Shown here piece by piece: positions 51,695 to 54,600 of a stretch of DNA of 64,000 nucleotides. Source of the DNA: Escherichia coli. Lineage in GTDB: Bacteria; Pseudomonadota; Gammaproteobacteria; Enterobacterales; Enterobacteriaceae. Made by a program: the position numbers. The stretch lies in the NCBI RefSeq assembly GCF_003018255.1, contig NZ_CP027440.1; one strand, written 5' to 3'. Each line of letters starts with the position of its first letter. Positions within the stretch are counted from its first letter, which is position 1.

Positions 51695-54600
51695 AACAGC
51701 ACCGAAAGTCACGCTGTGGGAGTTCTTCCAGCAGTTAGGCAAAACCTTCATGCTACCCGTGGCATTATTGTCGTTCTGCGGCATTATGCTCGGCATTGGT
51801 AGTTCTCTTAGCAGCCATGATGTCATCACCCTGATCCCGGTCCTGGGCAACCCCGTGTTGCAGGCTATCTTTACCTGGATGAGTAAGATTGGCTCGTTTG
51901 CTTTTAGTTTCCTGCCAGTCATGTTCTGTATCGCCATCCCGCTGGGCCTGGCACGCGAAAACAAAGGTGTAGCGGCATTTGCTGGCTTTGTCGGTTATGC
52001 GGTAATGAATCTCGCGGTAAACTTCTGGTTGACCAATAAAGGCATTCTGCCAACCACGGACGCCGCGGTTCTGAAAGCCAATAACATTCAGAGCATTCTT
52101 GGGATCCAGTCGATCGATACAGGGATCCTCGGTGCGGTGATCGCCGGTATTATCGTCTGGATGCTCCATGAGCGTTTCCATAATATCCGCCTGCCGGATG
52201 CGCTGGCATTCTTCGGCGGTACGCGCTTCGTGCCAATCATCTCCTCGCTGGTGATGGGCCTTGTCGGTCTGGTGATTCCATTAGTCTGGCCAATTTTCGC
52301 CATGGGTATTAGCGGCTTAGGCCATATGATCAACAGCGCGGGTGATTTCGGACCGATGCTGTTTGGTACCGGTGAACGTCTGCTGTTGCCGTTTGGTCTG
52401 CATCACATTCTGGTGGCATTAATTCGCTTTACCGACGCAGGCGGCACGCAGGAAGTCTGCGGTCAAACCGTCAGCGGCGCACTGACCATCTTCCAGGCGC
52501 AATTGAGTTGCCCGACCACTCACGGTTTTTCTGAAAGCGCCACGCGTTTCCTTTCGCAAGGTAAAATGCCTGCGTTTCTCGGCGGCCTGCCAGGTGCAGC
52601 GTTAGCTATGTATCACTGCGCGCGCCCGGAAAATCGCCATAAAATTAAAGGTCTGCTTATTTCTGGCCTGATCGCCTGTGTCGTTGGCGGCACGACCGAA
52701 CCTCAGGAATTCCTGTTCCTGTTCCTGTTCGTAGCGCCAGTTCTGTATGTCATCCACGCGCTGTTAACCGGCCTCGGCTTCACCGTCATGTCTGTGCTCG
52801 GCGTCACCATCGGTAATACCGACGGCAATATCATCGACTTCGTGGTGTTCGGTATTTTGCATGGTCTGTCAACCAAGTGGTACATGGTGCCAGTGGTGGC
52901 GGCAATCTGGTTTGTCGTTTACTACGTCATCTTCCGTTTCGCTATCACCCGCTTCAATCTGAAAACCCCGGGGCGCGATAGCGAAGTGGCCAGTTCAATC
53001 GAAAAGGCCGTTGCCGGTGCGCCAGGTAAATCAGGTTACAACGTTCCAGCAATCCTCGAAGCCTTAGGCGGTGCCGACAATATTGTCAGCCTCGATAACT
53101 GCATTACCCGTCTGCGTTTGTCTGTGAAAGATATGTCGCTTGTTAATGTGCAGGCACTGAAGGACAATCGGGCAATTGGCGTAGTACAACTTAATCAACA
53201 TAACCTGCAGGTTGTTATCGGGCCACAAGTTCAGTCAGTAAAAGATGAAATGGCCGGTCTGATGCATACTGTCCAGGCATAAGGATAAGATATGTTCGAT
53301 TTTTCAAAGGTCGTGGATCGTCATGGCACATGGTGTACGCAGTGGGATTATGTCGCTGACCGTTTCGGCACTGCTGACCTGTTACCGTTCACGATTTCAG
53401 ACATGGATTTTGCCACTGCCCCCTGCATTATCGAGGCGCTGAATCAGCGCCTGATGCACGGCGTGTTTGGCTACAGCCGCTGGAAAAACGATGAGTTTCT
53501 CGCGGCTATTGCCCACTGGTTTTCCACCCAGCATTACACCGCCATCGATCCTCAGTCGGTGGTGTATGGCCCTTCTGTTATCTATATGGTTTCAGAACTG
53601 ATTCGTCAGTGGTCTGAAACAGGTGAAGGCGTGGTGATCCACACACCCGCCTATGACGCATTTTACAAGGCCATTGAAGGTAACCAGCGCACAGTAATGC
53701 CCGTCGCTTTAGAGAAGCGGGCTGACGGCTGGTTTTGCGATATGGGCAAGCTGGAAGCCGTGTTGGCGAAACCAGAATGTAAAATTATGCTCCTGTGTAG
53801 CCCACAGAATCCTACCGGGAAAGTGTGGACGTGCGATGAACTGGAGATCATGGCTGACCTGTGCGAGCGTCATGGTGTGCGGGTTATTTCCGATGAAATC
53901 CATATGGATATGGTTTGGGGCGAGCAGCCGCATATTCCCTGGAGTAATGTGGCGCGCGGAGACTGGGCATTGCTAACGTCGGGATCGAAAAGTTTCAATA
54001 TTCCCGCCCTGACCGGTGCTTACGGGATTATAGAAAATAGCAGCAGCCGTGATGCCTATTTATCGGCACTGAAAGGGCGTGATGGCCTTTCTTCCCCTTC
54101 AGTACTGGCGTTAACTGCCCATATCGCCGCCTATCAGCAAGGCGCGCCGTGGCTGGATGCCTTACGCGTCTATCTGAAAGATAACCTGACGTATATTGCA
54201 GATAAAATGAACGCCGCGTTCCCTGAACTCAACTGGCAGATCCCGCAATCCACTTATCTGGCCTGGCTTGATCTACGTCCATTGAACATTGACGACAACG
54301 CGTTGCAAAAAGCGCTTATCGAGCAAGAAAAGGTCGCGATCATGCCGGGATATACCTACGGTGAAGAAGGTCGTGGTTTTGTCCGACTCAATGCCGGGTG
54401 CCCGCGTTCGAAACTGGAAAAAGGTGTGGCTGGATTAATTAACGCCATCCGCGCTGTTCGTTAACCCCAATTGCGCAACGTAAAAAATCGTTGCGCAATC
54501 GTGGATTTTTACCCTGCTTTGTTTTTATAATGGTGCGCACTTTTATATCCAGAAAAAGAGTGCGACCATGATTGATACCACCCTGCCATTAACTGATATC

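What the first reader, a model, noticed from the sequence alone, without database searches (positions are those of the whole stretch)
52710..52729. Likely 6-bp in-frame repeat expansion (extra Leu-Phe) in a conserved motif of malX
MalX here reads EFLFLFLFVAP, whereas the glucose-family EIIC signature (e.g. PtsG EFSFMFVAP) has two fewer residues, and the DNA is three tandem ctgttc units. This is consistent with one extra slipped-strand repeat and a 532-aa rather than remembered 530-aa protein, inside a motif involved in sugar translocation.
Basis: partly seen in the sequence, partly recalled or inferred. Interest (0 to 1): 0.4.

Follow-up and report, generated by a model that had tools for sequence, protein, structure and literature searches.

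The report
Rare two-residue insertion allele of malX
This E. coli strain carries a real but rare version of the accessory sugar-transporter gene malX. One extra copy of a six-base repeat, plus a neighbouring point mutation, alters the most conserved part of the sugar-binding site, an ordinary replication-slippage event that probably weakens a dispensable protein.

Summary
Window 52710-52730 is (TTCCTG)x3.5, and malX (51684-53282, +) encodes 532 aa reading GGTTEPQEFLFLFLFVAP. K-12 reads TEPLEFLFLFVAP (530 aa), and 5,413 of 5,415 complete RefSeq E. coli genomes carry 2.5 units. None carries 3.5.

It is not a read error. The exact protein is deposited (EET9565673.1 and others) and occurs on about 50 contigs of one lineage.

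A sibling allele differing only at that base shows the insertion came first.

The site is a small mutational hotspot:
- +6 bp arose on at least 4 backgrounds.
- -6 bp (528 aa) arose on at least 4 backgrounds.
- L341Q arose on at least 2-4 backgrounds.

L341Q turns CTGGAA into CAGGAA, the exact inverted copy of the repeat unit. That is the signature of a quasipalindrome template-switch mutation.

The changes sit in hairpin helix HP2b, directly after the sugar-binding Thr-Glu (PtsG T297/E298). In 90 diverse family members the spacing from E339 to P350 never varies, and position 341 is never polar. Impaired transport is therefore likely but untested, and it would be tolerated because malX is MalI-repressed and redundant.

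This is an ordinary mechanism acting on a known gene, so interest is low.

The parts
51684..53282 (+). malX coding sequence (PTS maltose/glucose EIICB), 532-aa allele
   Evidence: ORF list. Start fixed by RefSeq malX annotation in L001/L002. Pfam PTS_EIIC 276.9 bits and PTS_EIIB 61.5 bits. The exact protein is P0001 / EET9565673.1.
52710..52730 (+). Perfect tandem hexamer array (TTCCTG)x3.5, which is one unit more than the species norm and encodes F343-L-F-L-F-L-F349
   Evidence: 2.5 units in 5,413 of 5,415 complete genomes. 1.5-unit and 3.5-unit alleles exist on several backgrounds.
52704..52706 (+). Codon 341, CAG (Gln) instead of CTG (Leu); the T->A change is at 52705
   Evidence: It is the only substitution separating the window from sibling allele L006 over 6.25 kb. 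The position is always I/L/F/V/M in 90 family members.
52704..52715 (+). CAGGAATTCCTG, a perfect 12-bp palindrome created by the T->A change (ancestral CTGGAATTCCTG has one T:T mismatch); CAGGAA is the inverted copy of every TTCCTG unit
   Evidence: Read directly from the sequence. DNA folding gives -3.6 -> -6.2 kcal/mol with 2.5 units and -3.8 -> -6.4 kcal/mol with 3.5 units.
52689..52703 (+). Codons G336-T-T-E339-P340, the GITEP-type sugar-binding motif at the tip of hairpin HP2
   Evidence: Aligns to PtsG G295-I-T297-E298-P299. T297/E298 are the main glucose hydrogen-bond partners (PMC11393339). E339 is one of only two invariant columns in 90 homologues.
50481..51509 (-). malI, the divergent repressor of malXY; in this genome only it carries a compensated -2/+2 frameshift (at 51080 and 51120-51121) that replaces 13 residues
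   Evidence: This MalI (WP_249926333.1) was seen on a single 4.89-Mb contig.
53292..54464 (+). malY, the downstream gene of the operon, intact (390 aa)

Best explanation
The region is malX, the MalI-repressed accessory PTS EIICB permease for maltose and glucose, in a rare natural allele produced by two local replication errors. Step 1 (shown): in an ancestor of this lineage the 15-bp tract (TTCCTG)2.5 gained one unit. This is the classical product of slipped-strand mispairing and inserts Leu-Phe into the short helix HP2b, which follows the sugar-binding Thr338-Glu339. Step 2 (order shown, mechanism inferred): a T->A change five bases upstream of the tract gave L341Q. It converts CTGGAA into CAGGAA, the exact inverted complement of the repeat unit, so a quasi-palindrome becomes a perfect one. 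That is what a leading-strand template switch would produce, and it explains why the same change recurs on other backgrounds. Consequence (inferred): the distance between the invariant Glu-Pro and the Ala-Pro that starts TM7 is constant across the whole Glc family, and residue 341 is always hydrophobic. The 532-aa protein is therefore probably impaired or altered in transport. The allele persists because malX is normally repressed and is redundant with PtsG, ManXYZ and MalEFGK. Being in-frame, it has no polar effect on malY.
For: Identity and extra unit. Rarity: no complete RefSeq E. coli genome has 3.5 units, and 5,413 of 5,415 have 2.5 units. Not an artefact: the exact protein is in NCBI and Logan on about 50 contigs and 67-68 index blocks, all in the same neighbourhood, and sibling contig L003 has 0 substitutions against the window over 6.25 kb. 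Order of events: L006 has the insertion with Leu341 and differs from the window by only the T->A. Slippage hotspot: the +LF allele occurs on four different DNA backgrounds (L006-L009) and on the K-12 protein background (P0037). The -LF allele of 528 aa occurs on four DNA backgrounds (L010-L013) plus P0034 and P0005. All differences are exactly one TTCCTG unit. The same tract in a prophage gene of this window also varies by -6, +6 and +12. Quasi-palindrome: the mutation perfects the inverted repeat and deepens the hairpin by 2.6 kcal/mol. L341Q is found on the consensus background (two DNA backgrounds, L004 and L005), on the K-12 background and in the window lineage. L341P, R, M and V are all absent from 15 billion proteins. 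Negative GC skew and the K-12 map position place the leading-strand polymerase on the side that would copy CAGGAA into codon 341 rather than codon 344. The mirror change L344Q is absent, consistent with the known leading-strand bias (PMC7202029). Constraint: 114 of 115 motif-bearing representatives have exactly 8 residues between EP and [A/S]P, and the single exception is a frameshifted sequence. There are no indels between E339 and P350, and residue 341 is never polar, in 90 homologues of 30-81% identity. The Pfam score falls from 287.0 to 276.9 bits. In the AlphaFold models helix HP2b (339-346) is broken, and local pLDDT falls from 86 to 55 while the rest of the model is unchanged. The role of the motif is described in PMC11393339 and PMC12900739. 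malX is repressed by MalI and acts only as a back-up glucose route (PMC12089948).
Against: No functional data exist for any of these alleles, so a hydrophobic Leu-Phe insertion in a membrane helix might be tolerated. The pLDDT drop is partly an automatic effect of two alignment columns with no homologous residues. The quasi-palindrome stems are short (4-7 bp) compared with the classical thyA and lacZ reporters. The mirror-image correction was not seen. Recurrence of L341Q could instead reflect selection. Contig counts are biased by uneven sampling of outbreak clones. Some of the apparently independent origins could in principle be short recombination patches, although flanking synonymous sites differ.
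Confidence: 0.75

Rival explanations
1. The allele is a harmless, function-preserving length polymorphism. HP2b and its linker to TM7 absorb two extra hydrophobic residues, and MalX works normally.
For: The insertion duplicates the local Leu-Phe pattern and the rest of the gene is intact. Both +2 and -2 alleles persist in multi-isolate clones: about 50 contigs for P0001 and 83 for P0033. The overall AlphaFold model is unchanged.
Against: There is no length variation in this segment in 90 homologues down to 30% identity, nor in 114 of 115 motif-bearing representatives. The profile score drops by 10 bits. The segment directly abuts the substrate-binding Thr-Glu. All indel alleles are rare, at 2 of 5,415 complete genomes.
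Confidence: 0.25
2. The changes were selected. L341Q is a compensatory or specificity-altering second-site change that restores or retunes the inserted transporter, or loss of MalX activity is itself advantageous.
For: The insertion came first and L341Q followed within 8 bp. The double mutant is sampled more often than the single one: about 50 contigs and 68 blocks, against about 12 of the 24 P0035 contigs read that share the window lineage's gene neighbourhood. Only Gln appears at codon 341 among the possible single-base changes.
Against: L341Q also occurs without the insertion on at least two other backgrounds, where there is nothing to compensate. It is exactly the change predicted by the inverted repeat. 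Clone sizes reflect sampling. A polar residue is never seen at this position in the family.
Confidence: 0.1
3. L341Q is an ordinary, untemplated point mutation, and its position next to the repeat is coincidence.
For: The hairpin stems are short. The mirror change L344Q is absent, and random singletons such as L346Q and L344P also exist in the database.
Against: The same transversion occurs on at least 2-4 backgrounds while the four other possible replacements at the codon are absent. The change makes the inverted repeat perfect, and its side matches the leading-strand bias.
Confidence: 0.3
4. The extra unit is a sequencing or assembly artefact, or was copied by gene conversion from the identical 21-bp tract in the prophage gene at 4820-4840.
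For: This assembly shows probable homopolymer errors elsewhere, such as C7->C6 in rsxD. An identical 21-mer lies 48 kb away.
Against: The exact allele was recovered independently in about 50 assemblies, including short-read Logan assemblies. The +6 allele arose on four backgrounds, whereas the prophage gene is present in only 77 of 5,426 genomes. There is no flanking homology beyond the 21 bases.
Confidence: 0.02

Closest known systems
E. coli K-12 MalX (PTOCB_ECOLI, b1621; TC 4.A.1 Glc family EIICB), in the malI / malX-malY locus
   Same: Same locus and synteny, hdhA-malI / malX-malY-add. Identity is 99.4% outside the indel, and the EIIC + EIIB architecture is the same.
   Different: 532 aa instead of 530 aa. 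There is an extra Leu-Phe after F343, plus L341Q (V103 instead of K-12's I103 is the common variant). The family-invariant spacing of 8 residues between Glu-Pro and Ala-Pro becomes 10.
E. coli PtsG / IICB-Glc (PDB 8QSR, 8QST, 9HNP) and Bacillus cereus MalT (5IWS, 6BVG)
   Same: Homologous over the whole EIIC (E = 8e-75 and 3e-46). MalX T338/E339 align with the glucose-binding T297/E298 at the tip of HP2, and the changes lie in the equivalent of HP2b, which lines the substrate cavity.
   Different: PtsG reads TEPIEFSFMFVAP with the canonical spacing. The window protein needs a 2-residue gap in PtsG to align.
Slipped-strand mispairing at short tandem repeats (in-frame microsatellite indels)
   Same: Perfect head-to-tail units. 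Alleles differ by exactly one unit, gains and losses are both present, and origins are recurrent and independent.
   Different: The tract is very short (2.5 units ancestrally), so events are rare. It is not a high-frequency phase-variable contingency locus.
Quasipalindrome-associated template-switch mutations (Ripley 1982; E. coli thyA hotspot and lacZ QP5/QP6 reporters of the Lovett laboratory)
   Same: A single-base change makes an imperfect inverted repeat perfect. It recurs at the same base, and its side is consistent with leading-strand bias.
   Different: The arms are only 6-7 bp, and one arm is itself a tandem repeat offering several registers. No rate measurement or genetic dependence has been tested.

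Membership tests
PTS Glc-family EIICB permease (MalX orthologue) | PTS_EIIC domain followed by a PTS_EIIB domain with the phosphorylatable Cys | tested here: met
   PF02378 at 276.9 bits (cut-off 30.7) and PF00367 at 61.5 bits. The C473-ITRLR motif is conserved.
PTS Glc-family EIICB permease (MalX orthologue) | GITEP-type motif with the invariant substrate-binding Glu, and the HP1 His-His | tested here: met
   G336-T-T-E339-P340 and H240-H241 are present. E339 is invariant and H240/H241 are at least 90% conserved in 90 homologues.
PTS Glc-family EIICB permease (MalX orthologue) | Fixed spacing E-P-x-E-F-x-F-x-F-x-[A/S]-P (8 residues between EP and [A/S]P) and a hydrophobic residue after the Pro | tested here: not met
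   The window has 10 residues and Gln341. 114 of 115 motif-bearing representatives and 90 of 90 aligned homologues have 8 residues and I/L/F/V/M. This departure is a derived mutation within an orthologue, not evidence against orthology.
PTS Glc-family EIICB permease (MalX orthologue) | Orthologous genomic context: divergent malI, downstream malY | tested here: met
PTS Glc-family EIICB permease (MalX orthologue) | PEP-dependent uptake and phosphorylation of maltose or glucose | not testable with these tools
   Needs transport assays. The wild-type function is taken from the literature (PMC12089948; Reidl and Boos 1991, from my own knowledge).
Slipped-strand tandem-repeat indel | The length difference equals a whole number of perfect repeat units inside the tract | tested here: met
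   Alleles of 1.5, 2.5 and 3.5 units are identical outside the tract.
Slipped-strand tandem-repeat indel | Recurrent independent gains and losses in the population | tested here: met
   +6 bp on L006, L007, L008 and L009, and -6 bp on L010-L013. These loci differ by 16-157 substitutions over 6.25 kb and, for +6, have four distinct flanking haplotypes.
Phase-variable contingency locus (simple-sequence-repeat switch) | A long tract with high switching frequency that gives ON/OFF expression by frameshift or promoter spacing | tested here: not met
   The tract has only 2.5-3.5 units. Changes are in-frame. Non-standard lengths occur in 2 of 5,415 complete genomes, and 4.5-unit alleles are absent.
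Quasipalindrome-associated template-switch mutation | The ancestral sequence is an imperfect inverted repeat and the mutation increases its complementarity | tested here: met
   CTGGAA against TTCCTG has one mismatch, and T->A makes it perfect. Delta-G goes from -3.6 to -6.2 kcal/mol.
Quasipalindrome-associated template-switch mutation | Hotspot behaviour: the same templated base change recurs while untemplated changes at the site do not | tested here: inconclusive
   L341Q is found on 3 protein backgrounds and at least 2-4 DNA backgrounds. L341P, R, M and V are absent. This is database presence or absence, not a rate, and the mirror change L344Q is absent.
Quasipalindrome-associated template-switch mutation | Dependence on the opposite arm, on replication direction, and on 3' exonucleases (ExoI/ExoVII) or AZT | not testable with these tools
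   Only the direction is inferred, from GC skew of -0.025 and the K-12 map position.

The most novel reading that the evidence does not exclude
The overlap of a slippage-prone hexamer repeat and a quasi-palindrome within the codons for HP2b may not be an accident. It could act as a selected, reversible, non-polar tuning or inactivation site for MalX. Under this reading the 532-aa Gln341 protein is a functional transporter with altered gating or sugar specificity, and L341Q is a second-site adjustment to the two-residue register shift.
Probability: 0.06. Interest if true: 0.55.

Novelty: already known. Interest (0 to 1): 0.18.

Why it matters
The practical value is small. The finding flags that this lineage's MalX should not be assumed functional in metabolic models or in glucose-uptake engineering that relies on malI loss.

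It also offers a ready-made natural allelic series for probing how the length and register of HP2b couple substrate binding to the elevator movement in Glc-family EIIC transporters, now that PtsG and MalT structures exist. The series comprises:
- 528 aa
- 530 aa
- 532 aa
- 530 aa with Gln341
- 532 aa with Gln341

Finally, it is a compact natural example of two replication-error mechanisms, slippage and template switching, acting on the same 30 bp. None of this changes current understanding of the PTS or of mutagenesis.

Tried and rejected
1. Sequencing or assembly error. Rejected, because the exact protein occurs on about 50 independent contigs.

2. The three-unit form being normal for some E. 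coli or Salmonella. Rejected.

3. Longer expansions. 534-aa alleles with 4.5 units, with either Leu or Gln at 341, are not in the 15-billion-protein collection.

4. The mirror quasi-palindrome correction L344Q. Looked for on two backgrounds and absent.

5. Gene conversion from the identical 21-mer in the prophage helicase-loader gene. Considered and rejected as unnecessary and unlikely.

6. Control hexamer repeats of 2.5 units in fumC and pntB. No indel alleles were seen among about 5,400 complete genomes. However, 0 against 2 is too small a difference to show that malX is less constrained.

7. The plasmid collection search returned only mislabelled chromosomes.

8. A Dcm site near the quasi-palindrome, which could link to 5-azacytidine-type template switching. 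None is present in the sequence.

9. Using the AlphaFold pLDDT drop as evidence of disruption. Retained only as weak support, because the two inserted columns have no homologous residues in the alignment.
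Full report
**1. What is in the sequence**

Window 52710-52730 is a perfect period-6 tandem array, TTCCTG x3.5. It lies in a gene whose neighbours are a divergent LacI-family repressor, a downstream aminotransferase-like gene and adenosine deaminase. RefSeq annotation of the matching regions of strain 118UI and a K-12 strain names these hdhA, malI, malX, malY and add. This fixes the malX start at 51684; the longer mechanical ORF from 51480 is an upstream in-frame extension. The product is 532 aa and reads GGTTEPQEFLFLFLFVAP around the repeat.

**2. Comparison with references**

K-12 and 118UI read GGTTEPLEFLFLFVAP (530 aa). At DNA level the window has exactly one extra 6-bp unit, plus a T->A at 52705 that changes Leu341 (CTG) to Gln (CAG).

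A 321-bp query matched 5,415 complete RefSeq E. coli genomes over 315 bp. The best identity was 97.8%, which corresponds to one mismatch plus the 6-base gap. The only match of at least 99% was a partial one.

A 100-bp query of the common allele put 5,413 of 5,415 genomes at 95% identity or above, a band a 6-bp indel cannot reach. Two genomes fell below it, and the one shown spans 94 bases, meaning a unit has been lost.

**3. It is real**

- The exact 532-aa protein is in public data (EET9565673.1, EEY6452611.1, EFB5722627.1, EFL7149090.1). It occurs on about 50 contigs and is listed in 67-68 index blocks.
- All contigs read share the same gene neighbourhood.
- A sibling assembly, GCA_029307295.1, has no substitution against the window over 6.25 kb and only seven differing positions over 21.6 kb.

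**4. History of the allele**

Exact look-ups of constructed neighbour sequences showed that every one-step neighbour exists:

| Allele | Id | Contigs |
|---|---|---|
| +LF on the common protein background | P0035 | 12 |
| +LF on the K-12 background | P0037 | 2 |
| -LF (528 aa), common background | P0033 | 83 |
| -LF (528 aa), K-12 background | P0034 | 27 |
| -LF (528 aa), another background | P0005 | 6 |
| L341Q alone, including a Shigella boydii record | P0036 | 5 |

Alleles with 4.5 units are absent.

DNA from carrier contigs was aligned over 6.25 kb. Three results follow:

- L006 has the insertion with Leu341 and differs from the window by a single substitution, the T->A. In this lineage the insertion therefore came first and L341Q second.
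- The +6 allele occurs on four backgrounds (L006-L009) with four different flanking haplotypes. The -6 allele occurs on four backgrounds (L010-L013).
- L007 (+6) and L010 (-6) are otherwise identical to each other and are one substitution from K-12.

This is the pattern expected of slipped-strand mispairing at a short repeat: exact unit changes in both directions, recurrent but rare.

The identical 21-mer in an unrelated prophage gene of this window also varies by -6, +6 and +12 among the 77 genomes that carry the gene. This shows the intrinsic instability of the tract where constraint is low.

**5. The substitution**

The ancestral CTGGAATTCCTG is a palindrome with one T:T mismatch. More generally, CTGGAA is one base away from CAGGAA, the inverted complement of every TTCCTG unit. 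The T->A removes the mismatch, and predicted DNA hairpin stability goes from -3.6 to -6.2 kcal/mol.

Mutations that perfect a quasi-palindrome are the signature of replication template switching, which has a known leading-strand bias (PMC7202029).

Database evidence fits a hotspot:

- L341Q occurs in the window lineage (codon context CCT-CAG), in L004 and L005 (CCG-CAG, which are 48 substitutions apart) and on the K-12 protein background.
- L341P, R, M and V are all absent.
- Two of the other control variants, L346Q and L344P, exist only on 2 contigs and 1 contig respectively.

The window's negative GC skew (-0.025) and the K-12 map position of malX, together with the textbook positions of oriC and the terminus, imply that the fork moves from high to low coordinates. 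The leading strand then copies the repeat units first, and a fold-back would write CAGGAA into codon 341 rather than codon 344. Consistently, the mirror change L344Q is not found.

This step is an inference. The stems are short, and selection cannot be excluded.

**6. Where it sits in the protein**

phmmer against the PDB aligns MalX T338-E339-P340-Q341-E342-F343 with PtsG T297-E298-P299-I300-E301-F302, and a two-residue gap has to be opened in PtsG. In PtsG, T297 and E298 are the main hydrogen-bond partners of glucose, and HP2b lines the binding cavity of the elevator transport domain (PMC11393339). The Glu of the GITEP motif is described as essential (PMC12900739).

AlphaFold models built with the same 89 homologues give the following:

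| Feature | Common allele (530 aa) | Window allele (532 aa) |
|---|---|---|
| HP2a | 315-335 | 315-335 |
| Hairpin tip | 336-338 | not resolved as a single tip |
| HP2b | 339-346 | broken into 338-341 and 344-350 |
| Start of TM7 | P350 | 352 |
| pLDDT, residues 341-350 | 86 | 55 |
| Mean pLDDT | 90.6 | 90.0 |

Part of the pLDDT drop is an alignment effect, so I treat it as weak support only.

**7. Constraint**

A full HMMER scan of 1.84 billion representatives returned 150 diverse relatives.

- Of 115 with a recognisable TEP motif, 114 have exactly eight residues before the [A/S]P. The exception is a frameshifted sequence.
- In a 90-sequence alignment (30-81% identity) only G238 and E339 are invariant in the whole protein.
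- G336, T338, P340, E342, F343, F347 and P350 are at least 90% conserved.
- There is no insertion or deletion between E339 and P350.
- Position 341 is I, L, F, V or M only.
- The Pfam EIIC score falls from 287.0 bits to 276.9 for the window allele and 276.8 for the 528-aa allele.

Both changes in the window allele therefore lie outside everything the family tolerates. This makes impaired or altered transport likely. That conclusion is inferred, not shown.

**8. Why it can persist**

malXY is repressed by MalI. MalX becomes a significant glucose route only when malI is lost in strains lacking PtsG, ManX and ExuT (PMC12089948). By my own knowledge of Reidl and Boos (1991), it is otherwise an accessory enzyme II for maltose and glucose. 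An in-frame change does not affect malY, which is intact here. Weak purifying selection combined with a locally raised mutation rate explains rare, recurrent, clone-limited alleles.

Control 2.5-unit hexamer repeats in fumC and pntB show no indel allele among about 5,400 genomes. The contrast with 2 of 5,415 for malX is too small to be significant.

**9. Verdict**

This is a rare lineage allele of a known gene, made by slippage and followed by a probable quasi-palindrome-templated substitution, in the most conserved motif of the Glc-family EIIC. It is probably mildly deleterious to a dispensable protein. The mechanisms and the gene are well known, and the allele is already in public databases under the ordinary product name, although I found no paper that describes it. 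Interest is low. The main residual value is as a natural allelic series for HP2b structure-function work.

Noticed in passing
window 50481-51509 (-), changes at 51080 and 51120-51121: malI carries a compensated frameshift. A T5 run is shortened to T3 (-2), and 40 bp away a CA dinucleotide is duplicated (+2). This replaces 13 residues (AGSSDDLRRMAEE -> VQEAAMTCDGWQK) while keeping the 342-aa length. This MalI (WP_249926333.1) was seen on a single 4.89-Mb contig, and the sibling assembly has the normal sequence. It could be a real inactivation followed by a suppressor, or a pair of assembly errors.
   Followed up: partly
window 61383-62440 (+), C-run at about 61650-61655: rsxD is split into two ORFs, 61383-61700 and 61670-62440. 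The cause is a C7->C6 difference relative to the sibling assembly, where the gene is an intact 352 aa. This is either a true pseudogene or a homopolymer error typical of long-read assemblies.
   Followed up: partly
window 4820-4840, inside the ORF 4232-5314 (-): The identical 21-bp string TTCCTGTTCCTGTTCCTGTTC occurs in a prophage DnaD-like helicase-loader / replication-initiation gene (phrog_1701, E = 5e-150), where it encodes a Gln-Glu repeat (SSQEQEQEQEQERDK). The gene is present in only 77 of 5,426 complete genomes, and its tract varies in length, with -6, +6 and +12 seen.
   Followed up: partly
window 55886: A single G/T difference from the otherwise identical sibling assembly GCA_029307295.1, downstream of add.
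   Followed up: no
window 40001-64000: The closest complete RefSeq E. coli genome over this 24 kb, DETEC-S792, is only 99.2% identical, and most genomes are about 98.4% identical. The window's lineage is therefore poorly represented among complete genomes, and the window's own genome is not in that collection.
   Followed up: no
L007 and L010 (K-12-like malX loci from other assemblies): A +6-bp allele and a -6-bp allele of the same repeat occur on malX regions that are otherwise identical to each other over 6.25 kb and one substitution from K-12. Both directions of slippage have thus happened within one very recent background.
   Followed up: yes
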